Below, in pieces: positions 20,674 to 35,953 of a stretch of DNA of 64,000 nucleotides (within the stretch, counting starts at the first letter, position 1; each line of letters opens with the position of its first letter). Source of the stretch: Escherichia phage BF17; the sequence record MW822008.1, one strand, 5' to 3'. The notes under the pieces are model-generated. The model did no database searches, was not told the origin of the DNA, and saw only the letters and a list, made by a program, of their open reading frames with translations. The position numbers were made by a program, and so were the translations under genes.

Positions 20674-20680
20674 CATTATA

Positions 20681-21817: not shown

Positions 21818-21831
21818 TCTTTTTCTCCTTG

Positions 21832-22980
21832 TTATATTGATGGCATATCCAACACATATGAGTTGCTAGTGATTGATGAATATGTAGAATTTAAACCTGT
21901 ACTATAAACATAATCACCTGCCCATAAGAATGTTCTATCCAATGTTGTATGTATTTCAATATCATCATATGATGATAATGATATTTGTGCTAGTGTATAT
22001 GTAGTAGCATCAATGTTTGAACCAATACCCAAAGTACCATTGTATTGTGATTGGGAGTTTTGACCAGTTGCATATATACCAGATTTGGTTATTAAATGCT
22101 GATTATACATTGACGTACCTTTAAACAATTTAATTAAATTAGAGTTAGGTGTTGTTATTTGTGCAGGAGCAAGTATTGTTGTTGTAGTGCCACCATCACC
22201 TAATTGTCCATATCGTTGGTAACCACCAGCGTATACCTGTTTAACTCCAGTAGTAGTTTCTATAATAAAGAATGAACCATAGCCAGTAGTATTAAAGTCT
22301 ATAATTTTATTTGTACTCAAACCAACATTATATCTAGTAAATGTTGTTGCATTAGCAGAACCACCAGCATTCCCACCGACCATTTGACCACTATAATAAA
22401 ATGCACCAGTACTGTCAGTATAAGCCATACAGTTCTCACTACCATAGATTTTTACTGGTGTACTGGGGAAACTAGAGGTTATATTCACACATGTATTATA
22501 TTTTGCAGTAGTTCCAGTAATTTCACCATTGTTGTTTTGACCAATTGCCCAAACTGTGTCATCGGAACGTATAGCCATTGAGCTAAAAAACGATGACACA
22601 AATTGTTTAATAAAGGAACCAGGGAGGGAAGTAAGCATACTATTGATTTGTGCACTCACATTGGTCCATGTATTCACAACTGAATTGACACCTGCCGCTG
22701 CACCTGAACCTGAACTCCACCATGATTCATCATTCTTTTTAATCAATGTACCGTTAGCAGAACAATAAACATCAGCAACTGAACTATTAACTAATATCCA
22801 TTCCCTCGCTGTTGTGGTATTACCAGTACCTAGCTGTCCTGCTGCATTACTACCCTTAGCATATAAATCACCACTCTGCGTTAAAAGCATAGCATGTTGG
22901 TATCCAGTAGATAATTTCTTTATTTTTGGTAATGCTGGTGCTTCATTTCCATAATCAAACATTCTAACAAAAGGTAACAT
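21832..22980 (-). CDS. array member 3: RCC1-like repeat protein
   Basis: 382 aa; MLPFVRMFDYGN; AGQLGTGNTT and YGQLGDGGTT; own TATAAT/AAGGAGG cassette. Confidence 0.75.
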   Translation of the reverse strand: MLPFVRMFDYGNEAPALPKIKKLSTGYQHAMLLTQSGDLYAKGSNAAGQLGTGNTTTAREWILVNSSVADVYCSANGTLIKKNDESWWSSGSGAAAGVNSVVNTWTNVSAQINSMLTSLPGSFIKQFVSSFFSSMAIRSDDTVWAIGQNNNGEITGTTAKYNTCVNITSSFPSTPVKIYGSENCMAYTDSTGAFYYSGQMVGGNAGGSANATTFTRYNVGLSTNKIIDFNTTGYGSFFIIETTTGVKQVYAGGYQRYGQLGDGGTTTTILAPAQITTPNSNLIKLFKGTSMYNQHLITKSGIYATGQNSQSQYNGTLGIGSNIDATTYTLAQISLSSYDDIEIHTTLDRTFLWAGDYVYSTGLNSTYSSITSNSYVLDMPSI

Positions 22981-23025
22981 AATTCCCTCCTTTATTCATT
23001 ATACTATATTTAATCAAAAAGAAAA

Positions 23026-23044
23026 GCCAGCACTCTGTACTGGC
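23026..23044 (-). terminator. inter-cassette hairpin with T-run
   Basis: GCCAGCACTCTGTACTGGC, then TATAAT and AAGGAGG of the next gene. Confidence 0.55.
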
Positions 23045-23050
23045 ATAATA

Positions 23051-24202
23051 TTATTTCCACGGTAGAAGTGAATCTGGAACTCTTGTTGGTACATTGGTTG
23101 TTGACACACCTGTGAGATTTGGAACACCACATGTATATAAATTATCAGCTTCATCCACTAGCATTGTATAAGAATATCCCCTACAAAAACTACCAATTGC
23201 ACGGCCTTCTAATGCAGAAAGATTCATTTCAGTAAATGTTGTTATATTTGCCACGTTTGAACCAACACCACATTGACCATTTGTATTCAGACCACATAAA
23301 AATAACTTATTATTATTTTTAATTGTACATGATGGCCCTGCAAGGTTTGTGCCAAGTTCACCCACCAACTCTATTTCACCTTGGAATGATAAATTTGGAA
23401 TTAATGCACTCATAGGAACTGGTGTTGTATTTCCAGTACCAGCTTGTCCCCTAACGTTAGTTGAAGCCACTTTGACGGTCCCATCATTAAGAAATATATA
23501 AGAAGTTTCAATTGTATTGACTGCTTTAGTCGCAGTAATAATAGAAGATTCTTGAGTAAATGTTAGTACGTTTTGTGCTGATGTTCCTGATACAAATGTA
23601 TTACCTGCGTACCAATATGTGCCATCATTGAGCACTAATCCAGTACTGCGTATTGCACACCCAGCACTTCGAACATTTTCAATAGTACTATAAGTGAATT
23701 GTGTAACGCTTGCAGTTGAACCATTTCCAAATACACCACCTATTCCCGCTCCACAGTAGAACCACTTTCCATTTTTTAAAAATACACGTAAACAACCAGA
23801 TATAACAATATTATCAATATCATCTGCAATAACACCGAAGTCAGCAAAGTTCTGTGTTACTTCAACCCAAACACCGTTGGTATCTGCTGATAATATTGGA
23901 ATTACAGACCTTGAACCAGTGTACCAAATAGTTCCATTTTTCTTAATAGCAATTGTACCTTGAACACCACCCCAATAACGTTCCACATTTGTATTGACAT
24001 TAGTCCATGAAGTTGATGTGTTAGTTGAGCCATATGCACCATTACCGCTTTGTCCATATGTTGCTGTACCATACCAATATAGATCGCCTGTAGTGTGTAA
24101 ATAAAATTTGGAATCAGCCGAGCATTGTAATCTATTTTTAAATATAGGTTTTGGCTCTGGTGCTACATTCCCGAACTTAACCATTCTTGCAAAAGGTAAC
24201 AT
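23051..24202 (-). CDS. array member 4: beta-propeller-like repeat protein
   Basis: ORF 23051-24268 trimmed to the conserved MLPFARMVKFGN start; the longer reading runs through the RBS. Confidence 0.7.
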   Translation of the reverse strand: MLPFARMVKFGNVAPEPKPIFKNRLQCSADSKFYLHTTGDLYWYGTATYGQSGNGAYGSTNTSTSWTNVNTNVERYWGGVQGTIAIKKNGTIWYTGSRSVIPILSADTNGVWVEVTQNFADFGVIADDIDNIVISGCLRVFLKNGKWFYCGAGIGGVFGNGSTASVTQFTYSTIENVRSAGCAIRSTGLVLNDGTYWYAGNTFVSGTSAQNVLTFTQESSIITATKAVNTIETSYIFLNDGTVKVASTNVRGQAGTGNTTPVPMSALIPNLSFQGEIELVGELGTNLAGPSCTIKNNNKLFLCGLNTNGQCGVGSNVANITTFTEMNLSALEGRAIGSFCRGYSYTMLVDEADNLYTCGVPNLTGVSTTNVPTRVPDSLLPWK

Positions 24203-24247
24203 ATTTCCTCCTTTATTCATTATACTATATTTAATATAAAAAGAAAA

Positions 24248-24266
24248 GCCAGTATCAAGTACTGGC
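24248..24266 (-). terminator. inter-cassette hairpin with T-run
   Basis: minus strand reads GCCAGTACTTGATACTGGC TTTTCTTTTT, then TATAAT, AAGGAGG, ATG. Confidence 0.6.
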
Positions 24267-24279
24267 ATAGTATTAAGGT

Positions 24280-25410
24280 TTAAATATTTTTATAATTAAT
24301 TTCTACATAGTTACGTTGTGTTCCAGTATATCCTGGAACATTACCTAAATTTCCATTACCTGCACCAAACAGACGTTCTCCGACTGCAAAATATGTCCCA
24401 TAGAAACAACCATCAAACACAGGAACATCATTATAATTTGATATGTAATTATCCATTGAATCCATTCTAGTGTATGCAGTCAGAGTTACATTTGTACCTA
24501 TACCATATGCACCATAAGGGTTAGTACCAGCAACATAATACCCAGTGGGTGTACATATTACTGGTGAATTTGCCCCTGATCTCGTGTGGATAAATCTAAA
24601 TGTACCTTCAGGTACTGGTGCTTCTTTACTGAATAATGTTGTAGCTACTACTGGGTAATCAATACCATAACTATTACCACTCAACCACGTTTTACCATCA
24701 CTATCTTTGAATAATGAACAGGATTGTGTGCATCCGAACAGATTCAAATTGGTTACATTTGGAAATTTACTAATTTGTGTATATACCAGAACTGTGGTTG
24801 CGGTAGCACTACCAAGTTGTCCACGACCATTATCACCCGCACTGTACATGTACCCATCGGTCTTTAATATTATACTAGCGTTTCCTAAAATATCAAAATC
24901 AACAACATCCGTTTGTGTTAATGTAGCTATAGGATAACGAAAATTCACTGCCTCACCAGTACCAAATTGACAATTGGTGTTTACCCCACATCCATATAAG
25001 TTGCCGTTTTGCATTAATATAAACAAACCTGTTGTCATTTTAATTTTCTTAATATTAAGAATATCTATATCTTGGAATATGTGTGTTACATTTACAAATG
25101 TGGTTGAGTTAACAGCACTTGAACCATAATAAGAACCGTTCCCGCTACCAAAGAATTCATCGCCTTTTCTGTACATTGCACATAGACTGCCACCCCATAC
25201 ATCATCAACTCCAGTGTCAATTTGAATAACTGAAGTAACACTAGTTGTTGCACCAGTGCCAAGTTCACCACCTGAATTGAATCCAAAACCATACAAATCT
25301 CCACTTTCGGTGAGCACCAAAACACTGTTAGTGGTTGTGCATGAAATCTTTTTGATATTATTAGATGGTCTTTTATTTCCGTACTTAACCATTCTTGCAA
25401 AAGGTAACAT
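24280..25410 (-). CDS. array member 5: RCC1-like repeat protein
   Basis: trimmed to MLPFARMVKYGN; GGELGTG and RGQLGS repeats. Confidence 0.7.
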   Translation of the reverse strand: MLPFARMVKYGNKRPSNNIKKISCTTTNSVLVLTESGDLYGFGFNSGGELGTGATTSVTSVIQIDTGVDDVWGGSLCAMYRKGDEFFGSGNGSYYGSSAVNSTTFVNVTHIFQDIDILNIKKIKMTTGLFILMQNGNLYGCGVNTNCQFGTGEAVNFRYPIATLTQTDVVDFDILGNASIILKTDGYMYSAGDNGRGQLGSATATTVLVYTQISKFPNVTNLNLFGCTQSCSLFKDSDGKTWLSGNSYGIDYPVVATTLFSKEAPVPEGTFRFIHTRSGANSPVICTPTGYYVAGTNPYGAYGIGTNVTLTAYTRMDSMDNYISNYNDVPVFDGCFYGTYFAVGERLFGAGNGNLGNVPGYTGTQRNYVEINYKNI

Positions 25411-25454
25411 AATTCCTCCTTTATTCATTATACTATATTTAATCAAAAATAAAA

Positions 25455-25473
25455 GCCAGTATCAAGTACTGGC
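25455..25473 (-). terminator. inter-cassette hairpin
   Basis: GCCAGTATCAAGTACTGGC on plus strand. Confidence 0.6.
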
Positions 25474-25487
25474 ATAGTTTTATAGTA

Positions 25488-26597
25488 TCATTTCGGCATT
25501 GTAATTGCAGACCATGAGTTCGTGGTAATAGGACCTGGCACATACAAAAAAGAACCACAAGCATAAATTTGATTATTACCATCAAATACTATACTAAAAT
25601 GTGCACATGTGTATAATGCTGATTTTTCTGGGTTGTAATTATCTAAAGTTAGTGTATTGGTGAATCTACTCAAACCACCACCAGAACCATTTCTACCAAA
25701 TTCACCAGTACTATATATCTTTCCTTCGGTTGTTGCGTACATATTAACATATGAAGTTGCACTTGATTTTGATATTTTATGTATCTTACTATCAATAGTA
25801 GTGGAGTTAAATGCAAATGGATATACTTGTGTGTTCGTTGTAATACCGTTACCAAGTTGACCAACATACTGCCAACCTGCGTTGTATATATTGCTGGCTG
25901 AATAAGCAAGAGTACCAGTACTGTTACCACCAAACAGTTTAACACTGGTTAACCTGCTTACTAGTGTAGTATACTGTCCTGGACTTACGCCAAGTGAACC
26001 ATACCCACTACTCCCACAACCGAGAAGTTCACCATTTGATGTTAATATTAATGTGTTATTCTGTGTACCCAATATATCAAGGACTGTATTAGCTCCGGTA
26101 TTAATAACTGAAACAAAAGTACTCTGAGCCGTGGAATACCCACCACCGAGTGAATAGTTACCATTCATGCCTCTACCATAAACAATCGAACCACTAGCAT
26201 CAACGTAGTGCATTGTATCTGCACCAATTGATATCATTTTAATATTAGATATATGTGGAAATGAAGAAGTAACATTCAAACCACCCAACGGAATCGTAGT
26301 ATTTCCTGTGCCTAATTGTGTGGTAACTCCATGCATTATGAATTCTTCACCCTTGATATAAAGAATATTGTACGCCCCAGCCCATGCATCAGTAACACCT
26401 TCTGAAATTAATATCCAAGTATTTCTTGTTGCTGTATTTGTAACGTTTAACTGAAAATACGAATTAACCCCACAACCATAAAGTGAGCCATCGCCATAGA
26501 GGACGTACAAATTATCAAGACCGCACAGTACTTTCTTTATCTTTGGATCTTCAGGTGCAATATTCCCGTAATCAAACATTCTAACAAAAGGTAACAT
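25488..26597 (-). CDS. array member 6: RCC1-like repeat protein
   Basis: trimmed to MLPFVRMFDYGN; VGQLGNG repeat. Confidence 0.7.
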   Translation of the reverse strand: MLPFVRMFDYGNIAPEDPKIKKVLCGLDNLYVLYGDGSLYGCGVNSYFQLNVTNTATRNTWILISEGVTDAWAGAYNILYIKGEEFIMHGVTTQLGTGNTTIPLGGLNVTSSFPHISNIKMISIGADTMHYVDASGSIVYGRGMNGNYSLGGGYSTAQSTFVSVINTGANTVLDILGTQNNTLILTSNGELLGCGSSGYGSLGVSPGQYTTLVSRLTSVKLFGGNSTGTLAYSASNIYNAGWQYVGQLGNGITTNTQVYPFAFNSTTIDSKIHKISKSSATSYVNMYATTEGKIYSTGEFGRNGSGGGLSRFTNTLTLDNYNPEKSALYTCAHFSIVFDGNNQIYACGSFLYVPGPITTNSWSAITMPK

Positions 26598-26642
26598 ATT
26601 TCCTCCTTTATTCATTATACTATATTTAATACAAAAAGAAAA

Positions 26643-26661
26643 GCCAGTATCAAGTACTGGC
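26643..26661 (-). terminator. inter-cassette hairpin
   Basis: GCCAGTATCAAGTACTGGC. Confidence 0.6.
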
Positions 26662-26668
26662 CTATATC

Positions 26669-27406
26669 TTAGACTGAATTGTCAGGATAATATCTCCCAC
26701 GTCCCCATATTATTCGCACAGCACCACCACCAGCAGCCGTATAAGAAGAATTATCCCATATACTACCACCACCACCATACCTCTTACCAGCACCACCACT
26801 ACCAGCACCACCATTATATGAACCATCGTAGCTACCACCAATACCATTAGCACCTTGAACAATGATACCAGTACCACCACCCGTACCAATGAACGAGGTA
26901 TTATAGAATGCACCACCACCACCGCCCCCGCCAGCACCATTTTCACCAGTGATTGCATTTCCGTTACCACCTTTACCTGTGTAGCCACCAGCACCACCAC
27001 CAATGACTGCACCACCACTTAAACCAGTGTTGCCACCATTACCACCACCATCATTAATAGCGTTAGCAGCTTTTCCACCTAGTCCACCAACCGTATATGC
27101 ACCAGTGAAGCTAACACATAGTTTTTCAGTTCCACGATATAAACCGTTTTCAACTGCTGTAGTAGTGTTGGGATGTGTAAGAGAAACACTTAAGTACTCA
27201 CCACCAGAAACCGGAATATTATTACGCCACGATAAGCCGCCACCAGCACCACGTTGACCACCCGGCGAAATAACACATACTGATATTTCGGTAACGCCAG
27301 CAGGAACTGTAAATTGTGTTGTTCCTATTGTCGTGATTAATTGTTCACCATGTGGCTTATATTCAATTTTATTCCCGAACTTAACCATTCTTGCAAAAGG
27401 TAACAT
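26669..27406 (-). CDS. array member 7: glycine-rich protein with the shared N-terminal tag
   Basis: 245 aa; MLPFARMVKFGN followed by long poly-Gly tracts. Confidence 0.7.
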   Translation of the reverse strand: MLPFARMVKFGNKIEYKPHGEQLITTIGTTQFTVPAGVTEISVCVISPGGQRGAGGGLSWRNNIPVSGGEYLSVSLTHPNTTTAVENGLYRGTEKLCVSFTGAYTVGGLGGKAANAINDGGGNGGNTGLSGGAVIGGGAGGYTGKGGNGNAITGENGAGGGGGGGAFYNTSFIGTGGGTGIIVQGANGIGGSYDGSYNGGAGSGGAGKRYGGGGSIWDNSSYTAAGGGAVRIIWGRGRYYPDNSV

Positions 27407-27451
27407 AATTCCCTCCTTTATTCATTATACTATATTTAACCAAAAAGAAAA

Positions 27452-27470
27452 GCCAGTATCAAGTACTGGC
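27452..27470 (-). terminator. inter-cassette hairpin
   Basis: GCCAGTATCAAGTACTGGC. Confidence 0.6.
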
Positions 27471-27477
27471 TTTTACA

Positions 27478-28668
27478 TTACAATTGTCTAGGTGTATCCA
27501 GTACATATCTATTTGTACTAGGACCACCATCATCATAAGTTCCGGTTGAATATATATTTTTCATATCAGCAGTTAGGAAAGTACGTAACGACCCTCGATA
27601 TATTTTTATTTTATCATACATAGAATATGTTATTTCTGACGGCAATGGACATGCAGTAAATTTACCAATGGTAACATTAGAACCAACACCCAATGAACCA
27701 GCATAACTACTCGCATTTAAACCTGTTGCATATACACCAGAACTCGTAACTAGTATACTAGATTGTGCTGGGTATCCAGTATGAATTGAATACAAAGTAC
27801 CGGGTGGTAAGGTTGAACTATTATTTCCTAATACTGCTCGTGCTGTACTAGACGTAGTGTTATTACCCCATGCCCCATTATTGGCGTTCCCACCCACTAG
27901 GAACTGACGTGCTCCTGTACTTGGATTCTCCACTAAAGCACTGACTGCACCAATTGTACATACAACATATTGTAATGTTTTTGTATATGTTGTACTTGGC
28001 TGATATAAAGTATATTGATTGTATGGAGTCCATGTATCAGTAGTACTTATACCTGATGTACTACCACCAATATATAAATTATTTTGTGTATCATAAAACA
28101 TTACACAGCTATTTGTTGACTGTATTCGTGCAATATCAACATTAGGCGTGACAGCTTTTACAAATGATCCATCTGTTATTTGTTGAGTACTACCAGTACC
28201 ATCAGCGAATTGTCTAGCCCCACTCCAACCAGTACTCCATATTGTATTATTATCCATTAAGAAAGTAAACCAAGTAGTACCTGCATACATCTGTTTAATT
28301 GAAGTACCTGAACTTTGTGTGTACAAATTTTCAATATATTGGTTATAACTTAAAAATGATGTAGTACTAGTTTCTAAACCAATATGACCACCATATCCAC
28401 AATAAAAATAATTTAAGTCCTTATCTTGAACTAACAAAGTTCCTTGTGTCATCCAGCAATCTTTGACATTTTCTCTAATTAATGTCCACGACCTTACTGC
28501 ATTATTATTTCCGCGACCGAACTTCCCATAACTATTATTTCCTCGTGCGTATAGTTGACCGTCAGTATAAAGTACAACCACATCAGTATCAGTTGGTATT
28601 ATTTTCTTAATTAGAAGAGGTTCAGGTGTGATATTCCCATAATCAAACAATCTAACAAAAGGTAACAT
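27478..28668 (-). CDS. array member 8: beta-propeller-like repeat protein
   Basis: 396 aa; MLPFVRLFDYGN; Thr/Ser/Asn/Gly-rich. Confidence 0.7.
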   Translation of the reverse strand: MLPFVRLFDYGNITPEPLLIKKIIPTDTDVVVLYTDGQLYARGNNSYGKFGRGNNNAVRSWTLIRENVKDCWMTQGTLLVQDKDLNYFYCGYGGHIGLETSTTSFLSYNQYIENLYTQSSGTSIKQMYAGTTWFTFLMDNNTIWSTGWSGARQFADGTGSTQQITDGSFVKAVTPNVDIARIQSTNSCVMFYDTQNNLYIGGSTSGISTTDTWTPYNQYTLYQPSTTYTKTLQYVVCTIGAVSALVENPSTGARQFLVGGNANNGAWGNNTTSSTARAVLGNNSSTLPPGTLYSIHTGYPAQSSILVTSSGVYATGLNASSYAGSLGVGSNVTIGKFTACPLPSEITYSMYDKIKIYRGSLRTFLTADMKNIYSTGTYDDGGPSTNRYVLDTPRQL

Positions 28669-28713
28669 ATTTCCCTCCTTTATTCATTATACTATATTTA
28701 ACCAAAAAGAAAA

Positions 28714-28732
28714 GCCAGTACTTGATACTGGC
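28714..28732 (-). terminator. inter-cassette hairpin
   Basis: GCCAGTACTTGATACTGGC. Confidence 0.6.
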
Positions 28733-28738
28733 GTAATG

Positions 28739-29881
28739 TCAATAAGCTTCCCACGGTAAGGGTGTCTTCCTAAATCCATACCTGGTTGTGGTCGCACCAT
28801 CACCAGCAATGTATCGACCGATACCACATTGGTATAACTCTGTACTACTACATATAGCACCACCAATAGTACCACTACTCCACAGAATTATATTAGAATA
28901 TGTTATTGGTAAATCACTACATTTAGTATATACACCAACGGTAGCAGCCCCACTAATACCACCAAACATACTTCGGTTAGCACCAGTATAATATATACCA
29001 TCTGGACTCATAAATGCAGAGGTGTAAGTTGTACTACAATCCACTGGACTTCTTATAGTATTAAGATCGCCTGGGTATGTCCTGGCACCAAAGGTGTATA
29101 CATTACCATCAGTTGTAATACCATTACCTAACTGCCCACTGTTTTGTCCACCACATGTAAGCAACAATGCAGAACCAGAAACAATTGCAGTAGCATTATA
29201 CGAAGTACCCATCGCAATAGAAGCACCAGACAATAGTTTTGGAGTAACAATAGCTGTTGTATTACCCTGGCCTAATTCACCATTGATATTTCGTCCCCAT
29301 GCGTATATAGAAGTTGTATCCAATCGACATAGTACTGAACCATAACTAAACGTATATCGCATGTCAATTACCGCATTAGGCAAATTAACCTTAGTTGCAA
29401 CACTAATAACACCACCAGTAACACCACTGTTTGCGTTCATGTTACGACCATATGCATATAAAGAACCATCTGAAGTTTTAATATGCATCATACCATCTGT
29501 ACAATACAATGCATCTATACTATCCACTGCAACCGGACCCATACTGGTAGTTATATCGGTCCACCCAAGCGTGGTAGTACTGGAAATTAAGTTATTTCCG
29601 GCGTATAGTATTCTATTATTATTAGTAACTACAACTGTATATCTGGCAGTAACACCAATTAATCGAACATCAGTATATATCTTAGACCACGCACCTAATG
29701 AATTGGTGTTTGCATCCAAAAAGCCCAACTGCCCATCTGTATTGTATCCAATACCCCATACATCACCTGCACTGTCCAATAACACTTCATGTGAAAATCC
29801 AATCTTAAAATCTTTTATTGTAGGAACTACCGGAACTGGTGCAATATTCCCGTACTTAACCATTCTAGCAAAAGGTAACAT
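28739..29881 (-). CDS. array member 9: RCC1-like repeat protein
   Basis: 380 aa; MLPFARMVKYGN; DGQLG, NGELGQG, SGQLGNG repeats. Confidence 0.75.
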   Translation of the reverse strand: MLPFARMVKYGNIAPVPVVPTIKDFKIGFSHEVLLDSAGDVWGIGYNTDGQLGFLDANTNSLGAWSKIYTDVRLIGVTARYTVVVTNNNRILYAGNNLISSTTTLGWTDITTSMGPVAVDSIDALYCTDGMMHIKTSDGSLYAYGRNMNANSGVTGGVISVATKVNLPNAVIDMRYTFSYGSVLCRLDTTSIYAWGRNINGELGQGNTTAIVTPKLLSGASIAMGTSYNATAIVSGSALLLTCGGQNSGQLGNGITTDGNVYTFGARTYPGDLNTIRSPVDCSTTYTSAFMSPDGIYYTGANRSMFGGISGAATVGVYTKCSDLPITYSNIILWSSGTIGGAICSSTELYQCGIGRYIAGDGATTTRYGFRKTPLPWEAY

Positions 29882-29927
29882 AATTCCCTCCTTTATTCAT
29901 TATACTATATTTAATACAAATAAGAAT

Positions 29928-29946
29928 GCCAGTATCAAGTACTGGC
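29928..29946 (-). terminator. inter-cassette hairpin
   Basis: GCCAGTATCAAGTACTGGC. Confidence 0.6.
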
Positions 29947-29952
29947 ATTATG

Positions 29953-31062
29953 TTATTTTGGTAAATCAATTTTAGTAAAGACTGCAACATCCTCGCTTGC
30001 TCCAGGAATGGCGTAATACGATCCAGTACTATACACATCTCCATCTTTGGTTAATATTGATGTCAAACCATCACTAAAAAGAACATCCCTAATTGCACTA
30101 ACTTCAACGGGTAATTGTAAATTTGTAGCACTATATATAGCACCAGTTTGAGAATTGTTTAATCCCAAACCACGGTTCGCCCCAACACCCTTCTGATATG
30201 TACTAGTAATTACCATTTGTGTCGCAGTATTTAAGGCAGGTGAATTCGTCATAAACAACGGAGAACTATTCGGCAAAGTACTTACAGGAACTGCACGGAA
30301 TGTAGTCGTACCTGAACTAAGAAAGTTTGGAGTTTGACCACATACGAAATATGATGTGCCATTATAGTAATTTAATGCATTACCACCAATTGCTGCATCG
30401 ATTACACCAGAACTACGTAATCCCCAAGTGTTAACTTGTGTTTGGCTCCCCGTGCCATGCTGCCCACTGCTATTCCATCCAGAACTATATAGCTTATTAT
30501 CTAATGTAAGATACATACTATCATTCGCATTGGTCATTACTTTACGAACGTTCGTAGCACATTGAGTTAATGTGTAAATTGATGATGAACCAATACCTAA
30601 AGAACCACGATATCCATTATCTCCTGCACCATAGAGTACTGAATTAGTGCTAAGTACAAATATTAAACCATTTGTACATACAATATTAGCAATTTCACTT
30701 ACTGGTATTGCATTTGTGAACCAACTGGTTCTATCAACTAATACAGTACTGTAAGAAGTAGTTGTGGAAGATGTGAACCAGTACGTTTGACCTGATGACC
30801 ATATCGTATTATCATTTTTAATAATAACAAGTGTACGATCACCCACGAAAAAATTAGAAACATCTGTACTTACTAATATCCATGAGGATACTGTGTTGGT
30901 ATTTCCATTTCCAGATTCACCACCTTGATTTCTACCTATGTAATATAAATCATGTGAATCTGTCAATAAGAATTGACCCTGTGTAGAAGCACCAACTTTA
31001 ATTATATTTTTAGGACCAGGTGTGATATTCCCATAATCAAACAATCTAACAAAAGGTAACAT
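29953..31062 (-). CDS. array member 10: beta-propeller-like repeat protein
   Basis: 369 aa; MLPFVRLFDYGN; 10 nt downstream of member 11. Confidence 0.7.
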   Translation of the reverse strand: MLPFVRLFDYGNITPGPKNIIKVGASTQGQFLLTDSHDLYYIGRNQGGESGNGNTNTVSSWILVSTDVSNFFVGDRTLVIIKNDNTIWSSGQTYWFTSSTTTSYSTVLVDRTSWFTNAIPVSEIANIVCTNGLIFVLSTNSVLYGAGDNGYRGSLGIGSSSIYTLTQCATNVRKVMTNANDSMYLTLDNKLYSSGWNSSGQHGTGSQTQVNTWGLRSSGVIDAAIGGNALNYYNGTSYFVCGQTPNFLSSGTTTFRAVPVSTLPNSSPLFMTNSPALNTATQMVITSTYQKGVGANRGLGLNNSQTGAIYSATNLQLPVEVSAIRDVLFSDGLTSILTKDGDVYSTGSYYAIPGASEDVAVFTKIDLPK

Positions 31063-31072
31063 ATTTCTCTCC

Positions 31073-32203
31073 TTAATTTAGTAATGCCCCTGGCAAATCC
31101 ACTTTGACGAATTGTGCATATGCTGAGGAATTTTGATCAAAGTTTGGTCCCAATCCATAAAATGAGCTAATGCCGTCTTCATTTGTGTATATGATATAAA
31201 CGTTCTTTACATCATTTCCGCATATAAATCGAATGTCTTTCGTTTGTGTTCCCGCTGGAACATTACGAAGGTTCACAACGCCATTACTTGCATTGTTATC
31301 AGCCGACGCAATTGGTAATTGATTTTGACCATATTGACCACGCATATTTTTTGCATCTAAACCAAACACAGTATCTGATACCGCACCAACTTTCAAAAAT
31401 GAACCAAAACTATTATTGAATGACTTTGGAAATGTACCACTATAAACACTTCTCCCATCTGATAATACCGCTGAACTGAATTTCCCGCTATTCGATATGG
31501 CAAATTCATTGTAAGGAAGTGTACCCATTTTGGTATATACAGAATATGAATTAGTGGAAGTATTATCAATAATCTTATTACCATTATATCCAATACCATA
31601 CTGGTATCCGTCTGCATCTTGAACTATACACAAAGGACCACTTGGGGTTTGTGTCAACGAAACAACACGTTCAACTTGTATATCACCAAATGTATTTCTT
31701 CGCCATGTTCTATCTATTATAGTACTAGTATTACCCAAAGATAATGCCACACTATATAATAGATTGTTTTCAGTAAAAATGGCAACATAATATGCGTGGT
31801 TAATAACTTGCTTCATCCCAGCATCAATAACTTCCTGTGGAATATGATCAGTAACATCCAACCAATCAAGGTTAGATGATGCAATATCTGGAGTACTGAA
31901 TTTGTCAAATCTAGTTGAGCCACAAACTAGCACTCTATCATCATTTGTCAAAGCCACTGTGCTAGTCTGCATATTAGAACTGAATGATTTAACATTACTA
32001 ATGTTAGACTTGTACCAACCCTTATCAGCAGCACCCACCGTGAATCCGGTTCCCATTGATCCACTTGTACTTGTACCATAAGCCCACATCTCACCACTAT
32101 ATGTTAGTGCCATACAGTGGCTTCCATTTGCTTGGAAATCCTTTATACCAGTGGGAGCAACCACTGTATTCCCATAATCAAACATTCTAACAAAAGGTAA
32201 CAT
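31073..32203 (-). CDS. array member 11: beta-propeller-like repeat protein
   Basis: trimmed to MLPFVRMFDYGN; more divergent body. Confidence 0.65.
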   Translation of the reverse strand: MLPFVRMFDYGNTVVAPTGIKDFQANGSHCMALTYSGEMWAYGTSTSGSMGTGFTVGAADKGWYKSNISNVKSFSSNMQTSTVALTNDDRVLVCGSTRFDKFSTPDIASSNLDWLDVTDHIPQEVIDAGMKQVINHAYYVAIFTENNLLYSVALSLGNTSTIIDRTWRRNTFGDIQVERVVSLTQTPSGPLCIVQDADGYQYGIGYNGNKIIDNTSTNSYSVYTKMGTLPYNEFAISNSGKFSSAVLSDGRSVYSGTFPKSFNNSFGSFLKVGAVSDTVFGLDAKNMRGQYGQNQLPIASADNNASNGVVNLRNVPAGTQTKDIRFICGNDVKNVYIIYTNEDGISSFYGLGPNFDQNSSAYAQFVKVDLPGALLN

Positions 32204-32245
32204 AACTAAAATCTCCATATAATAATTATAATGTATTTACAAAAA

Positions 32246-32269
32246 AATACCAGTACGTATTTCAGTACT
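32246..32269 (-). terminator. inter-cassette hairpin (variant)
   Basis: ACCAGTACGTATTTCAGTACTGGT. Confidence 0.5.
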
Positions 32270-32277
32270 GGTATCAT

Positions 32278-33459
32278 TTATGGTAAAATGATAGATTGTA
32301 ACGAACTCATACCCAATGCTGGAACACTAGCCTGTGGTGCTGGAGAATTCAATTTTGGTGATGAAACCGCATAAGTCATTCCTGTACCCAAATCTGGATC
32401 AAAAACTACAGCACAATAATTCCCACTATATATAAGTCCATTCTTGTATCCTTGTGCACTTTGAATGCATTTCGTGAACGTACCAATATCTGTAGTGGCA
32501 TTTATTAAGTTCCTCCCACGATAACCGCAGGTGTATATGAAATTATCATCGCCTATGTACATACTAGAATCCCCAGAAGAACTACATAGATACGACATAT
32601 AAGCACGCATGTTTTTAGGAGCAACTGACAATGTACCTGCATAGAATTTATTATTCGAACCCGTAATATCACCATCACCCAATGCACCAAAACTTCCCCA
32701 GCCAGTACCGTAATATCTCTTATCACTCAAAAATATAATACAGTTGTTATTACACATCTTGATTTGATATATCAATGAAGGATCAACCCCAGGGAATGAT
32801 TCAGTGAATGTTAGAACAGCCGGATCAGTACTAGCATTACATTGATGATATGTATTAGTACCAGCGGACAAGATTGTTCCATTAGCTAACAGAATTCTCG
32901 CAGTACCAGTACCAGCAGTACAAGCAACTGCACTTCCTGCACTTCCGGTGTATATTTGTCTGAAAGTAAAGAAACCAACAGTCTTACTCCCTTGTCCACT
33001 CCAACCAGTATTATCAACACCACACGCCCATACTGAACCATCTTCCATGATCATCATTACACCAAAGCGTTCTATTGAAATATAAACAATCTTTTTAGTA
33101 TCAACTGCACGAAATCTAGAAGTTATATCCGTCCAAACCTTTACACTTACCGAAGTCGCACTGGAAGTAGGATCTTCACCTGCTATCATTATCCTACCAT
33201 TGTTAGTCAGATACATTGTCTGACTATAACCAGTACTACAAAACTTAACACTATCAGTCTCTGGAACTTTTAACCACTCGTTGTAACGTGTTACGTTAGT
33301 GTTATTACCTAACTGATAATAGTTATTCATCCCAGATACATATAACACACCATCCTTTATTAAACTATAAGTCGCACTATAGTCACTACAGGTATAACGT
33401 GTACCCACAGGTCGCTCAACGACGTTCCCATAATCAAACATTCTAACAAAAGGTAACAT
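32278..33459 (-). CDS. array member 12: beta-propeller-like repeat protein
   Basis: 393 aa; MLPFVRMFDYGN; 9 nt downstream of member 13. Confidence 0.7.
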   Translation of the reverse strand: MLPFVRMFDYGNVVERPVGTRYTCSDYSATYSLIKDGVLYVSGMNNYYQLGNNTNVTRYNEWLKVPETDSVKFCSTGYSQTMYLTNNGRIMIAGEDPTSSATSVSVKVWTDITSRFRAVDTKKIVYISIERFGVMMIMEDGSVWACGVDNTGWSGQGSKTVGFFTFRQIYTGSAGSAVACTAGTGTARILLANGTILSAGTNTYHQCNASTDPAVLTFTESFPGVDPSLIYQIKMCNNNCIIFLSDKRYYGTGWGSFGALGDGDITGSNNKFYAGTLSVAPKNMRAYMSYLCSSSGDSSMYIGDDNFIYTCGYRGRNLINATTDIGTFTKCIQSAQGYKNGLIYSGNYCAVVFDPDLGTGMTYAVSSPKLNSPAPQASVPALGMSSLQSIILP

Positions 33460-33468
33460 GATTTTCTC

Positions 33469-34662
33469 CTATGATTGCCATAACTGCGTTGGCATTAATG
33501 TTAATGTTTTAATTAAGTAAGTACCATCCGGTAAGTTACCACCTGAACCGTTAAAGCCCCCACATGCATATAATTTATAATCTTTAGTTATAATTATTGT
33601 TCTGGACCAGTCTTTGGATGCCATAAGAACATTGTCATATCCACCCTGTATCGCACTTAAAGAAAACGCCCCCCACGAAGTAATTACTGTTGTATTTCCC
33701 GTCCCTTCTTGACCATATGTATTGATGCCTGCACTCCTGACATATGATGGGTATTGAGCCATAGGTGCACCAATTGTTGAGTTACCCATATTACTAGGAC
33801 ACAGGAAACCATCACTAATATTCACTATAACCTGTGAATTCTGAACTGTAGTTAATTGGTTTGTAGTTGAAGTAGTACCATTCCCAGCTTGTCCAGAATT
33901 GTTTCTACCACTCCAGTACACCCTACCGGCAGTGAACCACCAGGTAACATCATAAGTAGCACTTATATAATCGACGTTGGTTCGTATTAATTTATTAGTA
34001 AAAACGTATGAGCTAGTCCCACCACCACTTTCACCAAAGTTATCCTTACCACAAAACCATGCTTCTTTATTTGTTTTGAGATAGTGCGTACCCTGTAATG
34101 AACACGCCAATTGAGAAACTTCACCCATACCAGTAACAACTGTTAGTACTGGAATGGAATTTTGGTTACCTGTTCCACATTCGGCATTTGCATTTTTACC
34201 ACAAACAACTACTCTTCCATCGTGTAGTAATATTCTAGTACTTTCACCTATATGTACACTCTTGATTAAATTAGCGTGTACATTTATTTTGTTAAATGCG
34301 GCAGTAACATCAGTCCATGTTCTAAAATAACCATTAACTGGAGTTGCATCTCCATAATCGGGGAATGCTACAGTATTCCCTGTGAAATATATTCTATTAT
34401 CCAAGTCAATCATCAATGAGCCATGAACGCCTAACCAAAAGGCTGCACAGTGCGTTGCCAGTACTGTAAAAGTAGAAACTGTCGATTGATTCCCTAGACC
34501 TAATTGGCTCAAGTTATTACCACCATAACCGTATAGTGTATTCGTGGGCTTATGTAGATACATAGCATTAGTATAATGTTGCTGTAAAACATCAGTGAAC
34601 TCAACTGGTTCAGGAATAGGCAGTTTATTCCCGTATTTAACCATTCTTGCAAAAGGTAACAT
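33469..34662 (-). CDS. array member 13: RCC1-like repeat protein
   Basis: 397 aa; MLPFARMVKYGN. Confidence 0.7.
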   Translation of the reverse strand: MLPFARMVKYGNKLPIPEPVEFTDVLQQHYTNAMYLHKPTNTLYGYGGNNLSQLGLGNQSTVSTFTVLATHCAAFWLGVHGSLMIDLDNRIYFTGNTVAFPDYGDATPVNGYFRTWTDVTAAFNKINVHANLIKSVHIGESTRILLHDGRVVVCGKNANAECGTGNQNSIPVLTVVTGMGEVSQLACSLQGTHYLKTNKEAWFCGKDNFGESGGGTSSYVFTNKLIRTNVDYISATYDVTWWFTAGRVYWSGRNNSGQAGNGTTSTTNQLTTVQNSQVIVNISDGFLCPSNMGNSTIGAPMAQYPSYVRSAGINTYGQEGTGNTTVITSWGAFSLSAIQGGYDNVLMASKDWSRTIIITKDYKLYACGGFNGSGGNLPDGTYLIKTLTLMPTQLWQS

Positions 34663-34725
34663 ATTTCCCTCCTTTATTCATTATACTATATTTAATCAAA
34701 AATAAATGCCAGTACTCATTTAATT

Positions 34726-35880
34726 TTAACGAGGTATAACTATTTTTTTGAATAATCCAGTATTTCCTGCATTTTCTTCTTCATATGGAATTGTACCCAT
34801 ACCAGCAGTTCTGCCACCATTCCCTGAACCATACAGTTCTCCATTCTTAATCATGAATGTTATCATATAACCATGTGTCATTTTATCATATGGAACTGGT
34901 TCAGTTATATTATTACATGCTCGCCATGTACTAATAACACGAGAGTTCGTTATACCATCACCTGATGCGTTTCCTCGACCAGCGAAATACCATATCCCAC
35001 CTGCTCTAACGTGTGCTTCATAATTAGAACCACCTATGTAATCAATCGCAGTACTAGGAATACTAGAAGCTGGTATCTTTGTGATTGTTCTAAGACTGTT
35101 AATAGTGCCATCAGTTCCATCACCCAACTGTCCATCTATTTGTGAACCGAATACATATAGCCCATCACTCTTTAATACGTAATTAGCACTATATGCATTT
35201 TCTGAATTTATCTGTAATACTCCAGTAGTAACAGTAGTCAATGTGGTAGTTGTACTAGTCGTACCAGTCGAACCAATACTAGATTTATTCCCACTGTACT
35301 TTAATGTCCCATCATTGTATAATACAAATGAAGCATTATTCGCGGTTACACCAATATCTTTAACATCAACTTCAGGTGTCAATGTCAGTACTGATACTCT
35401 TTGTCCAACAGCCCCAGTAAAAACTTCACCGTTGTTATTGTCACCCATCTTATATAATTTATTATCTATTGTTAATAATAATGTAACGCCGTTTCCTATA
35501 ACTATTTTACTATATGTGTCATTCACATTATTAAAAATACCAAGTATTTCTGTCCATACACGATAAGTAGTATTAACACCACGATAGATTTGAGTACCAG
35601 TACTCCACCATGTGCCATCATTTTTACGTACTAATATTCCTTGTGTATCACCAGTAGTCCAAAATTCCTTTACATCAGTTAAACATAAAACCCACTCTTC
35701 AACTATAGTAGGAGAACTACTACCAGTACCTAATTGATAGTAAAAATTATGCCCTCTGCCATATAATCTTCCGTCTTCTAATAAAATAAACACATTATTC
35801 TGTAAAACTTTTACCATCTTTATACCAACTGGCACAGGTGCTTCATTCCCATAATCGAACATTCTAACAAAAGGTAACAT
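34726..35880 (-). CDS. array member 14: RCC1-like repeat protein
   Basis: ORF 34726-36015 trimmed to MLPFVRMFDYGN; DGQLGDGTDGT. Confidence 0.7.
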   Translation of the reverse strand: MLPFVRMFDYGNEAPVPVGIKMVKVLQNNVFILLEDGRLYGRGHNFYYQLGTGSSSPTIVEEWVLCLTDVKEFWTTGDTQGILVRKNDGTWWSTGTQIYRGVNTTYRVWTEILGIFNNVNDTYSKIVIGNGVTLLLTIDNKLYKMGDNNNGEVFTGAVGQRVSVLTLTPEVDVKDIGVTANNASFVLYNDGTLKYSGNKSSIGSTGTTSTTTTLTTVTTGVLQINSENAYSANYVLKSDGLYVFGSQIDGQLGDGTDGTINSLRTITKIPASSIPSTAIDYIGGSNYEAHVRAGGIWYFAGRGNASGDGITNSRVISTWRACNNITEPVPYDKMTHGYMITFMIKNGELYGSGNGGRTAGMGTIPYEEENAGNTGLFKKIVIPR

Positions 35881-35926
35881 ATTCCCTCCTTTATTCATTA
35901 TAATATATTTAATACAAAAAAGAAAA

Positions 35927-35945
35927 GCCAGTATCAAGTACTGGC
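35927..35945 (-). terminator. inter-cassette hairpin
   Basis: GCCAGTATCAAGTACTGGC. Confidence 0.6.
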
Positions 35946-35953
35946 ATATTAAT

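What the first reader, a model, noticed from the sequence alone, without database searches (positions are those of the whole stretch)
22981..35953. Conserved hairpin + TATAAT + AAGGAGG cassette between array genes, continuous with the first 36 coding nt
Between most array genes the minus strand reads stop, GCCAGTA-loop-TACTGGC, a T-run, TATAAT, AAGGAGG, ATG, almost base for base. The identity extends through the first 12 codons in the two flavours. That gives a ~110-nt near-identical unit every ~1.2 kb, an obvious substrate for homologous recombination, so cassettes could be shuffled, duplicated or deleted. Four pairs lack the cassette and sit 9-14 nt apart (members 3 to 2, 11 to 10, 13 to 12, 16 to 15), implying bicistronic units and about 12 transcription units in total. 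The promoter has a clear -10 but no obvious -35.
Basis: seen in the sequence. Interest (0 to 1): 0.75.

Follow-up and report, generated by a model that had tools for sequence, protein, structure and literature searches.

The report
Shuffling joints in a phage gene array
A giant E. coli phage carries 16 very different virion-protein genes that each start with the same 12-residue tag, and most sit behind the same terminator-promoter-ribosome-site unit. Comparison with related phages shows these units are where genes have been swapped, added and lost.

Summary
The window comes from an Asteriusvirus jumbo coliphage (121Q/PBECO4 group). On the minus strand it holds 16 genes, mostly RCC1-like beta-propellers, plus one Kelch propeller and one Gly-rich protein.

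- **The unit.** Ten genes are preceded by a near-identical promoter and ribosome-binding site; eight of these also have an intact GCCAGTA-loop-TACTGGC hairpin with a T-run.
- **The cliff.** All 16 genes share the first 36 coding nt (86% mean identity). Identity falls to 37% over the next 36 nt, and the protein bodies are only 21-30% identical.
- **Transcription units.** Four pairs sit 9-14 nt apart. The motif TAAATA-N3-TATAAY occurs 12 times, once per predicted transcription unit.
- **Shuffling.** Across seven genomes, 83 genes fall into 34 body types with different orders, neighbours, tags and junction types. Of 62 homology-block ends, 59 lie in the units. One single-gene indel has its crossover in the hairpin's 5' arm.
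- **Products.** Eight tagged phAPEC6 array proteins were found in virions by published mass spectrometry.
- **Other genera.** The tag occurs in three further groups of related jumbo phages; the promoter box was confirmed in the Munch array.

The closest known analogues are PeSL cassettes and the T-even internal-protein loci, so this is a new variant of a known kind. Promoter class and tag function remain inferred.

The parts
18796..38020 (-). Array of 16 genes. ATGs at 19920, 21817, 22980, 24202, 25410, 26597, 27406, 28668, 29881, 31062, 32203, 33459, 34662, 35880, 37102, 38020. Each starts with the tag MLPF-x-R/L-M/L-x-x-Y/F-G-N. Bodies are RCC1-like propellers, except member 16 (Kelch) and member 7 (245-aa Gly-rich protein).
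22981..23050 (-). Unit 4>3: hairpin 23026-23044 (one G-U pair), T-run, TAAATATAGTATAAT at 22998-23012, AAGGAGG
   Evidence: (-12.4 kcal/mol)
24203..24279 (-). Unit 5>4: hairpin 24248-24266, T-run, promoter box 24219-24233, ribosome-binding site
   Evidence: -10 kcal/mol
25411..25487 (-). Unit 6>5: hairpin 25455-25473, promoter box 25427-25441, ribosome-binding site
26598..26668 (-). Unit 7>6: hairpin 26643-26661, promoter box 26614-26628, ribosome-binding site
27407..27477 (-). Unit 8>7: hairpin 27452-27470, promoter box 27424-27438, ribosome-binding site
28669..28738 (-). Unit 9>8: hairpin 28714-28732, which is the exact reverse complement of its fEgEco12 counterpart (loop TCAAG versus CTTGA); promoter box 28686-28700; ribosome-binding site
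   Evidence: (-11.3 kcal/mol)
29882..29952 (-). Unit 10>9: hairpin 29928-29946, promoter box 29899-29913, ribosome-binding site
32204..32277 (-). Variant unit 12>11: hairpin ATACCAGTAC-N8-GTACTGGTAT at 32246-32275, T-run, TAAATACATTATAAT at 32225-32239, GGAG. The same variant unit precedes a different gene (W13) in fEgEco12.
   Evidence: (-15.2 kcal/mol)
34663..34725 (-). Unit 14>13: promoter box 34680-34694 and ribosome-binding site are intact, but only the 3' hairpin arm (GTACTGGC) remains, so the terminator is probably inactive
   Evidence: no stem-loop formed; fEgEco12 has an intact hairpin after W14
35881..35953 (-). Unit 15>14: hairpin 35927-35945, promoter box 35897-35911 (TAAATATATTATAAT), ribosome-binding site
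38021..38075 (-). Array-proximal promoter of member 16: TAAATATGATATAAT at 38038-38052 plus AAGGAGG, T-run, no canonical hairpin. Conserved in fEgEco12, EC22.5-2, TH47, 121Q and phAPEC6.
21818..21831 (-). Tight junction 3>2 (14 nt, GGAG ribosome site, no terminator or promoter)
31063..31072 (-). Tight junction 11>10 (10 nt; the stop codon TAA overlaps the ribosome site TAAGGAG)
33460..33468 (-). Tight junction 13>12 (9 nt)
37103..37114 (-). Tight junction 16>15 (12 nt)
19921..19951 (-). Variant promoter of member 1: TAAATAAAGTATAAC at 19937-19951, followed by GGAG
20656..20674 (-). Hairpin terminator after member 2. It lies between member 2 and the convergent plus-strand ORF 19998-20648.
   Evidence: (-12.4 kcal/mol)
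18765..18791 (-). Hairpin terminator after member 1: AATCCAGTACTATTATAGTACTGGATT followed by a T-run

Best explanation
Each roughly 110-nt unit is a composite expression-and-joining module with five parts:
1. An intrinsic terminator that closes the upstream gene.
2. A promoter without a -35 element, built on the conserved box TTAAATA-N3-TATAAT.
3. A strong ribosome-binding site.
4. The start codon.
5. Eleven further codons that complete the conserved N-terminal peptide MLPFxRMxxYGN.

The peptide is fused to otherwise unrelated bodies: RCC1-like propellers, a Kelch propeller and a Gly-rich protein. The products are minor virion proteins.

Because the unit is the only sequence shared by neighbouring genes, the phage's general T4-type homologous recombination uses it as a short patch of homology. 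Crossovers in the hairpin, promoter or tag delete, insert, reorder or re-tag whole gene bodies while always leaving a correctly regulated, tagged gene. This turns the locus into a hypervariable repertoire.

Shown: the anatomy, the identity cliff, breakpoints inside the units, and virion association of the products (published mass spectrometry mapped here onto tagged genes).

Inferred: termination and promoter activity; the timing class (my best guess is late-type, through the gp55-like sigma factor, about 0.5); and that the tag is a virion-incorporation or docking signal (about 0.4).
For: Anatomy and significance.

Terminator: hairpins of -10 to -12.4 kcal/mol followed by UUUUCUUUUU; 22 terminator-like sites against 8.4 expected; the G17 record annotates ARNOLD terminators on the corresponding hairpins.

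Identity cliff: 0.86 falling to 0.37. Bodies are 21-30% identical and include different Pfam families.

Tag lies outside the fold: in the AlphaFold2 model (mean pLDDT 84) residues 1-19 have no secondary structure and low confidence. The body resembles UVR8/RCC1, TM-score 0.78.

Shuffling:
- Different orders in 7 genomes.
- 34 body types among 83 genes. Of the 21 types shared by at least two genomes, 14 have two or more different upstream neighbours, 13 have two or more tags and 9 have two or more junction types.
- 59 of 62 block ends lie in units.
- The member-4 indel crossover lies in the hairpin's 5' arm.
- Chimeric tags and one hairpin inversion.

Purifying selection rather than only recent copying:
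- The same architecture occurs in Salmonella phage Munch, with different nucleotides but the same peptide pattern (MIPFxRIxxYGN) and the same TTAAATATA(A/G)TATAAT box.
- The tag is present on RCC1, BNR and unannotated bodies in Yersinia and Erwinia jumbo phages.
- Non-coding units are no more alike within a genome than between genomes.

Virion association: phAPEC6 Table 1 (PMC7247149), mapped here to tagged array genes. GAP32 GAP_001 was also found by mass spectrometry (PMC5259590).

Late-type clues:
- TATAAATA lies directly upstream of six genes in the phAPEC6 structural-gene region, including the major head protein gene, and is depleted in the window (2 against 14 expected).
- The clade's predicted late consensus is ATAAATA with an A/T-rich downstream region, and the clade encodes a gp55-like sigma factor (phAPEC6 gp237c).
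- The Yersinia phage's top promoter keeps TAAATA but not TATAAT.

Recombination machinery: gp46/47-like and EndoVII-like genes are annotated in phAPEC6.
Against: - No transcript or 5'-end data exist for any Asteriusvirus in the searched library, so promoter and terminator activity are predictions.
- The array box never has the full TATAAATA that precedes genes in the structural region, and it is absent from the 49-kb structural region. It may therefore be a separate class.
- TATAAT is perfectly conserved, which argues for sigma-70-type recognition.
- The hairpin stems are conserved in sequence rather than by covariation, which terminator function alone does not require.
- No conserved protease cleavage motif follows the tag, and no direct evidence shows that the tag loads proteins into virions.
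- The block-end test is partly circular: the units are the only homology between non-orthologous neighbours, and the block ends share ancestry, so the binomial p of 6e-57 is nominal.
- Order differences could in principle arise from duplication followed by differential loss, although that also needs unequal crossing-over at the units.
Confidence: 0.7

Rival explanations
1. The unit is a sigma-70-dependent promoter with only a -10 element (early or constitutive, or needing a phage activator), not a late-type promoter. TAAATA is just AT-rich spacer.
For: TATAAT is a perfect -10 hexamer, invariant in 51 canonical units and conserved in Munch. The exact late box TATAAATA is never present in the units.
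Against: There is no -35 and no TGn extension, whereas this phage's own early promoters have strong -35 elements (27 of them at 43.7-63.1 kb). The products are virion proteins. TAAATA is as invariant as TATAAT, and it is kept in three sequence-unrelated unit variants and in the Yersinia phage, where TATAAT is lost.
Confidence: 0.3
2. The conserved unit is simply a leftover of recent tandem duplication and has no role of its own.
For: The genes are tandem, similar in size and mostly of one fold.
Against: Bodies are 21-30% identical and include Kelch and Gly-rich proteins, while the unit is 86-100% identical, with a cliff at codon 13. The architecture and the peptide pattern persist in other genera with different nucleotides.
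Confidence: 0.03
3. Shuffling is programmed. The invariant CCAGTAC/GTACTGG hairpin is the target of a dedicated site- or structure-specific recombinase or nuclease, in the manner of an integron or shufflon, rather than a passive patch of homology.
For: The stems are invariant in sequence while the loops vary freely. One indel crossover lies in the stem. One hairpin is inverted between close relatives. The stem is a split copy of CAGTACTG, a palindrome about 60-fold over-represented in the genome. An uncharacterised ORF (19998-20648) sits inside the array.
Against: Other crossovers lie in the tag-coding 36 nt, far from the hairpin. Tight junctions without hairpins are also reshuffled. ORF 19998-20648 has no Pfam or NCBIfam match, its only PHROG match is to a family of unknown function, and its model has no PDB fold match. 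The palindrome is genome-wide, not specific to the array.
Confidence: 0.1
4. The hairpins are mainly RNA-stability or processing elements on a long polycistronic array transcript, and the internal promoters contribute little.
For: Eneladusvirus and Erwinia arrays are tightly packed operons with no internal units. The broken hairpin before member 13 is tolerated.
Against: The hairpin plus U-run is the canonical intrinsic-terminator form. A promoter box accompanies each hairpin and is conserved independently in unit variants that differ elsewhere.
Confidence: 0.12

Closest known systems
PeSL (promoter-early stem-loop) cassettes of T4-like phages (Arbiol et al. 2010, PMC2839356; Comeau et al. 2014, PMC4122927)
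   Same: A short, repeated, composite terminator-and-promoter motif between variable non-core genes. Indels and replacements between close relatives have their junctions in the motif, sometimes inside the stem-loop. The proposed mechanism is general homologous recombination on short homology.
   Different: PeSLs have a strong sigma-70 early promoter (UP element, -35, -10) and GGGG...CCCC stems, flank unrelated ORFans, and do not extend into the coding sequence. Here there is no -35 but a late-like TAAATA box; the stem is GCCAGTAC; a conserved ribosome-binding site and 12 codons belong to the unit; and the cargo is one class of tagged virion proteins. There is no sequence homology to PeSLs. The window also has a separate class that looks more like true PeSLs (early promoter plus GC hairpin) at 43.7-63.1 kb.
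Hypervariable internal-protein (IP) loci of T-even phages, as discussed in PMC2839356. Details of the capsid-targeting sequence are from my own knowledge (Repoila et al. 1994; Mullaney and Black 1996).
   Same: A small locus with many alternative genes, each with its own conserved promoter and stem-loop and a short conserved N-terminal peptide. The products are packaged into virions, and gene content differs between close relatives.
   Different: T4 internal proteins are small and basic. Their roughly 10-residue capsid-targeting sequence is removed by the prohead protease at a conserved Glu. Here the bodies are 245-397-aa propellers, no conserved cleavage motif follows the tag, the location in the virion is unknown, and the array is far larger (7-16 genes).
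Conserved N-terminal anchor with exchangeable distal domain in phage receptor-binding and tail-fibre proteins (general knowledge)
   Same: The conserved N-terminus is the recombination joint and possibly the attachment point, while the distal part is variable.
   Different: Those anchors are folded domains of tens to hundreds of residues, usually on one or two genes. Here the tag is 12 residues on up to 16 tandem genes.

Membership tests
PeSL cassettes (T4-like phages) | Repeated intergenic composite of a stem-loop terminator and a promoter | tested here: met
PeSL cassettes (T4-like phages) | The promoter is a strong sigma-70 early promoter with -35, -10 and an AT-rich UP region | tested here: not met
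   No -35 within 16-18 nt of TATAAT. The phage's real early promoters look different.
PeSL cassettes (T4-like phages) | Stem-loop usually built on polyG...polyC | tested here: not met
   The stem is GCCAGTA(C)/(G)TACTGGC.
PeSL cassettes (T4-like phages) | Indel and replacement junctions between related genomes fall in the motif | tested here: met
PeSL cassettes (T4-like phages) | Formation of encapsidated mini-circles by recombination between flanking motifs | not testable with these tools
   Needs inverse PCR on infected cells or virion DNA.
T-even internal-protein loci with capsid-targeting sequence | Short conserved N-terminal peptide shared by otherwise unrelated proteins of the locus | tested here: met
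   MLPFxRMxxYGN is present on all 83 array genes detected in 7 genomes by a search that required an MLPF start, and on different folds.
T-even internal-protein loci with capsid-targeting sequence | Products are present in the virion | tested here: met
   Published phAPEC6 mass spectrometry (PMC7247149), mapped here to eight tagged array genes. GAP32 GAP_001 is reported in PMC5259590. The window's own phage has not been tested.
T-even internal-protein loci with capsid-targeting sequence | The tag is removed by the prohead protease at a conserved (L/I)-x-E site | tested here: not met
   No conserved Glu-containing motif follows residue 12. Actual processing is untested.
T-even internal-protein loci with capsid-targeting sequence | Proteins sit inside the head and are injected with the DNA | not testable with these tools
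   Needs cryo-EM, immuno-EM or ejection assays.
Intrinsic (rho-independent) terminator | G+C-containing stem of at least 5 bp, short loop, followed by a U-run | tested here: met
   7-8 bp stems, -10 to -12.4 kcal/mol, UUUUCUUUUU tail. In vivo termination is untested.
T4-type late promoter (gp55-like sigma factor) | TATAAATA (ATAAATA in this clade) at -10, no -35, A/T-rich downstream region | tested here: inconclusive
   The unit has TTAAATA (6 of 7 positions), no -35 and an A/T-rich downstream region, but never the exact box that precedes genes in the structural region.
Integron or shufflon-type site-specific cassette system | A dedicated recombinase gene next to the array, with all junctions at one defined site | tested here: not met
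   Nothing marks any ORF within the array as a recombinase. ORF 19998-20648 has no informative family match and no fold match. Junctions occur in the hairpin and also in the tag.
RCC1-like seven-bladed beta-propeller | RCC1 repeats and a propeller fold | tested here: met
   Three of the five members scanned have Pfam RCC1, RCC1_2 and/or RLD hits. The model of member 3 matches UVR8 (TM-score 0.78) and RCC1. Member 16 is a Kelch propeller and member 7 has no Pfam match.

The most novel reading that the evidence does not exclude
MLPFxRMxxYGN is a portable virion-loading or docking tag. The terminator-promoter-ribosome-site-tag unit is then a plug-in slot, and any body recombined behind it becomes a correctly timed virion protein. 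On this reading the locus is a population-level diversity generator for virion-borne binding proteins (adhesins or injected effectors). It is shared by several genera of Rak2-like jumbo phages and may be helped by a factor that recognises the clade's hugely over-represented CAGTACTG palindrome, from which the hairpin stems are built.
Probability: 0.3. Interest if true: 0.75.

Novelty: new variant of a known kind. Interest (0 to 1): 0.6.

Why it matters
Jumbo phages of the Rak2/121Q clade are phage-therapy candidates, yet over 80% of their genes have no known function. The so-called "DNA condensation" genes are annotated only by their fold.

This analysis recasts them as a hypervariable, modular set of tagged virion proteins. 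Related phages exchange these genes through a defined roughly 110-nt joint. That has four consequences:
- It extends cassette-mediated modular shuffling, known from early genes of T4-like phages, to virion-protein genes of a distant jumbo clade.
- It yields a simple testable peptide motif for virion incorporation.
- It explains why the array is the main region of difference between near-identical isolates.
- It offers a natural slot for engineering cargo or binders onto these phages.

Tried and rejected
- **Dedicated recombinase.** The only non-array ORF inside the locus (19998-20648) has no Pfam or NCBIfam match, and its only PHROG match is to a family of unknown function. Its AlphaFold2 model (pLDDT 71) has no PDB fold match. 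This gives no support for a recombinase.
- **Concerted evolution within a genome.** Non-coding units are as different within genomes as between them (0.128 against 0.131, p = 0.24). The signal is only marginal in the 36 coding nt (p = 0.04). Intragenomic gene conversion is therefore not the main cause of conservation.
- **Known RNA family.** No Rfam match in 18500-38500.
- **A generic phage promoter.** The 35-mer occurs only in Asteriusvirus records. In fEgEco12 the genome-wide count (10) equals the count inside the array locus. The TAAATA-N3-TATAAY box is absent from the 49-kb structural region of phAPEC6.
- **Tag as the propeller's closing strand.** The model leaves residues 1-19 without secondary structure.
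- **Protease-cleavable targeting sequence.** No conserved cleavage motif follows the tag.
- **Member 7.** No PDB sequence match, no Pfam match, and its only PHROG match is to a family of unknown function.
- **Wider distribution.** An IMG/VR scan for the exact 28-mer found only 121Q itself.
- **Literature.** Searches found no description of the cassette, no Asteriusvirus transcriptome and no report of the palindrome.
- **Excluded data.** The CMSTMSU array was dropped because its genes are heavily fragmented.

Full report
**What the window is.** A 20-kb query covering the array matches 36 phage records, all jumbo coliphages or Salmonella phages of the 121Q/PBECO4 group (Asteriusvirus). The best match is fEgEco12 at 97% identity, but it covers only 52% of the query. 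The records annotate the genes as "regulator of chromosome condensation" or "DNA condensation protein".

**Checking the observation.** On the minus strand there are 16 genes of 245-397 codons. Their ATGs are at 19920, 21817, 22980, 24202, 25410, 26597, 27406, 28668, 29881, 31062, 32203, 33459, 34662, 35880, 37102 and 38020.
- The hairpin GCCAGTA-N5-TACTGGC matches exactly 8 times against 0 expected.
- The 27-mer TAAATATAGTATAATGAATAAAGGAGG occurs 10 times with at most 2 mismatches against 0 expected, always just upstream of an array ATG.
- An alignment of 12 units shows invariant stem arms, T-run, TAAATA, TATAAT, GGAGG and ATGTTACCTTTTG. The same holds for 51 canonical units from seven genomes, where only the hairpin loop varies freely.
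- Mean pairwise nt identity among all 16 genes is 0.86 over +1..+36 and 0.37 over +37..+72.
- The hairpins fold at -10 to -12.4 kcal/mol and are followed by UUUUCUUUUU. A consensus scan finds 22 terminator-like sites against 8.4 expected. The G17 record annotates ARNOLD terminators on the corresponding hairpins, and the UE-S1 record annotates 104-105-nt repeat regions on the unit.

Three refinements apply:
- The unit before member 13 has lost the 5' arm of its hairpin.
- Members 11 and 1 have variant units with the same architecture.
- More units lie outside the given range.

**What the genes are.** The bodies are only 21-30% identical to one another.
- Three of the five members scanned have Pfam RCC1 or RLD hits. 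Member 16 is a Kelch propeller. Member 7 is a 245-aa Gly-rich protein with no Pfam match.
- An AlphaFold2 model of member 3 (mean pLDDT 84, pTM 0.84) is a propeller starting at residue 20. It matches UVR8 (TM-score 0.78) and RCC1. Residues 1-19 have no secondary structure and low confidence.
- All 16 proteins nevertheless begin MLPF-(V/A)-(R/L)-(M/L)-(F/V)-(D/K)-(Y/F)-G-N.

The conserved 36 nt therefore encode a peptide that is appended to different folds. It is not the first strand of a shared fold.

In phAPEC6, mass spectrometry found eight "DNA condensation" proteins in virions (PMC7247149). I mapped these (gp003, 005, 006, 007, 009, 010, 549, 551) to array genes that carry the tag; six also have the canonical unit, while gp003 and gp009 follow tight junctions. 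The single GAP32 homologue is also a mass-spectrometry-verified structural protein (PMC5259590).

**The promoter.** There is no -35 element and no TGn extension. By contrast, the window has 27 classical promoters on the plus strand at 43.7-63.1 kb, with TTGCAA or TTGACA, a 17-nt spacer and TATAAT; most are followed by a GGG..CCC hairpin.

The units have a second invariant box, TAAATA, 3 nt upstream of TATAAT. TAAATA-N3-TATAAY occurs 12 times in the window against 0.2 expected. All 12 lie upstream of array transcription units, including the two variant units that differ elsewhere.

The clade's predicted late promoter is ATAAATA with an A/T-rich downstream region, and the clade encodes a gp55-like sigma factor (PMC5259590; phAPEC6 gp237c).
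- In phAPEC6's structural-gene region, all six TATAAATA copies lie directly upstream of genes, including the major head protein gene.
- TATAAATA is depleted in the window (2 against 14 expected).
- The array box is absent from that structural region.

My best guess is that the array promoter is a late-like variant, which would fit products that are virion proteins. A sigma-70 promoter using only its -10 element, or a dual promoter, cannot be excluded.

**Comparative test of the recombination idea.** I extracted arrays from fEgEco12, EC22.5-2, TH47, UE-S1, 121Q and G17 and clustered the bodies at 80% or more amino-acid identity. The 83 genes form 34 body types, and arrays hold 7-16 genes (a lower bound for G17, whose locus is cut at one end).

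Orders differ. Here "|" marks a junction with an intergenic unit and ">" marks a tight junction.

| Genome | Order |
|---|---|
| window | 16>15 \| 14 \| 13>12 \| 11>10 \| 9 \| 8 \| 7 \| 6 \| 5 \| 4 \| 3>2 \| 1 |
| fEgEco12 | 15 \| b \| a \| 12 \| 13>10 \| 14 \| 9 \| 8 \| 7 \| 6 \| 5 \| 3>2 \| 1 |
| UE-S1 | 15 \| a \| 12 \| 10 \| 9 \| 7 \| 8 \| d \| l |

Of the 21 body types shared by at least two genomes:
- 14 have two or more different upstream neighbours.
- 16 have two or more different downstream neighbours.
- 13 carry two or more different tags.
- 9 have two or more junction types (canonical unit, variant unit or tight).

Of 62 ends of homology blocks (at least 400 nt, at least 85% identity) between the window and the six other arrays, 59 lie in the units. 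The units make up 7-9% of the region. The other three ends are within about 50 nt of an ATG. The nominal binomial p is 6e-57, but the ends are not independent.

Three junctions can be resolved at nucleotide level:
- **Member 4 is absent from fEgEco12.** The fEgEco12 5>3 unit has the 3' flank of gene 5 up to TATGCCAGTAC, and from there the loop and remainder of the window's 4>3 unit. The crossover is therefore in the 5' arm of the hairpin.
- **Tag exchange.** Body 12 carries MLPFVRMFDYGN in three genomes and MLPFGRMVKYGN in UE-S1, with identical sequence from nt 31 onward. Chimeric tags (MLPFVRMVKYGN, MLPFVRMIKYGN) also exist. These crossovers lie inside the 36 nt.
- **Hairpin inversion.** The hairpin before member 8 is the exact reverse complement of its counterpart in fEgEco12.

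**Why the unit is conserved.** Non-coding units are no more alike within a genome than between genomes (0.128 against 0.131, p = 0.24). Intragenomic gene conversion is therefore not the main cause.

The architecture is old.
- Salmonella phage Munch, from a group with about 29% ANI to fEgEco12 (PMC13070987), has an array with hairpins built on the same CAGTAC core, a T-run, TTAAATATA(A/G)TATAAT, a ribosome-binding site and MIPFxRIxxYGN. The nucleotides differ but the peptide pattern is the same.
- Yersinia phage fHe-Yen9-04 and Erwinia phage Kaldavass have tightly packed arrays in which RCC1, BNR and unannotated bodies mostly start MLPFP..(x)YGN. Their top promoter keeps TAAATA.

Both the tag and the promoter box are thus under long-term purifying selection. 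The individually insulated units were seen in the Asteriusvirus and Munch arrays but not in the Yersinia or Erwinia arrays.

**Mechanism.** The unit closes one gene, starts the next at a fixed strength and time, and supplies the N-terminal tag. It is the only homology between neighbouring genes. The T4-type recombination genes annotated in phAPEC6 (gp46/47-like and EndoVII-like) and in Sharanji (recombinase A) would therefore exchange whole bodies at these joints without breaking regulation or the tag.

I found no evidence for a dedicated recombinase. ORF 19998-20648 has no informative family match and no fold match.

The sequence invariance of the stem is not explained by terminator function alone. 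The stem is a split copy of CAGTACTG, which occurs 63 times in the window against about 1 expected. The related hexamer AGTACT is enriched about five- to twenty-fold in every locus counted across the clade. This is unexplained.

**Comparison with known systems.** The mechanism matches PeSL-mediated modular shuffling (PMC2839356, PMC4122927). The unit nevertheless fails two defining PeSL features, the sigma-70 early promoter and the G/C stem, so it is an analogue and not a member.

The nearest overall parallel is the T-even internal-protein loci. These have their own promoter and stem-loop, a conserved short N-terminal targeting peptide and packaged products. Here, however, no conserved cleavage motif follows the tag, and the proteins are large propellers whose location in the virion is unknown.

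I found no paper describing this cassette, the tag or their role in shuffling.

**Verdict.** It is a new variant of a known kind. Interest is 0.6.

Noticed in passing
whole window, e.g. 43361-43973 and 44481-45013; also loci L001, L003, L009-L012: The 8-bp palindrome CAGTACTG occurs 63 times in 64 kb against about 1 expected, and AGTACT 275 times against about 22. Sites lie in both coding and intergenic DNA. AGTACT is enriched in every locus counted: about 5-fold in the phAPEC6 structural region and 9- to 20-fold in the other six, which include the Munch, Yersinia and Erwinia arrays. Control palindromes of the same composition occur 0-1 times. The array hairpin stems are split copies of this palindrome. 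No literature on it was found.
   Followed up: partly
window 43776-63114, plus strand: A second and different repeated regulatory unit: AGTACTTGCAA or TTGACA at -35, a 17-nt spacer, (G)TATAAT, then ttttACAT and a GGGG..CCCC hairpin followed by AGGA. There are 27 full promoters in this stretch and 34 in the whole window, 22 of the 34 followed by the GC hairpin. They sit in front of small ORFs. This looks like the closer counterpart of T4-type PeSLs, although the hairpin lies downstream of the -10.
   Followed up: partly
window 38500-43000, plus strand: Tandem families of roughly 190-nt and 380-nt repeats encoding small (about 60-aa) paralogous ORFs. Related phages carry 10-17 annotated small hypothetical genes at the same place, next to the array's upstream end.
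   Followed up: no
window 4132-4139 and 5374-5381: The T4-type late box TATAAATA is strongly depleted (2 copies against 14 expected). One of the two copies lies 22 nt upstream of ORF 5403-6914, which by size and position appears to correspond to a gene annotated as a virion structural protein in fEgEco12.
   Followed up: partly
window 28714-28732 versus L001 (fEgEco12), upstream of the member-8 ortholog: The 19-nt hairpin is exactly inverted between two otherwise collinear genomes that are 96.5% identical over this block (loop TCAAG versus CTTGA). Both loop orientations also occur among other units. This suggests template switching or recombination within the hairpin.
   Followed up: partly
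window 19998-20648, plus strand: A 216-aa ORF of opposite orientation sits inside the array between members 1 and 2, conserved at the corresponding position in the arrays of fEgEco12, UE-S1 and 121Q. It matches phrog_34359 (unknown function), has no Pfam or NCBIfam match, and its AlphaFold2 model (pLDDT 71) has no PDB fold match.
   Followed up: yes
window 26669-27406 (member 7) and 37115-38020 (member 16): Two array members are not RCC1-like. Member 7 is a Gly-rich 245-aa protein (phrog_4474, unknown function; no PDB or Pfam match). Member 16 is a Kelch-repeat propeller with a weak match to NanM-type sialic-acid mutarotase. Both carry the same N-terminal tag.
   Followed up: partly
L010 (Salmonella phage Munch), L011 (Yersinia phage fHe-Yen9-04), L012 (Erwinia phage Kaldavass): Arrays of tagged genes exist in other genera of the clade. 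Munch has terminator and promoter units (MIPFxRIxxYGN tag). The Yersinia and Erwinia phages have tightly packed operons in which most genes carry an MLPFP..YGN-type tag, on RCC1, BNR and unannotated bodies.
   Followed up: partly
L003 (121Q) 4225-9046 and L008 (CMSTMSU): Several array genes are annotated as fragments in 121Q (for example gp235, 237, 240) and many more in CMSTMSU. Whether these are sequencing frameshifts or real pseudogenes was not resolved.
   Followed up: no
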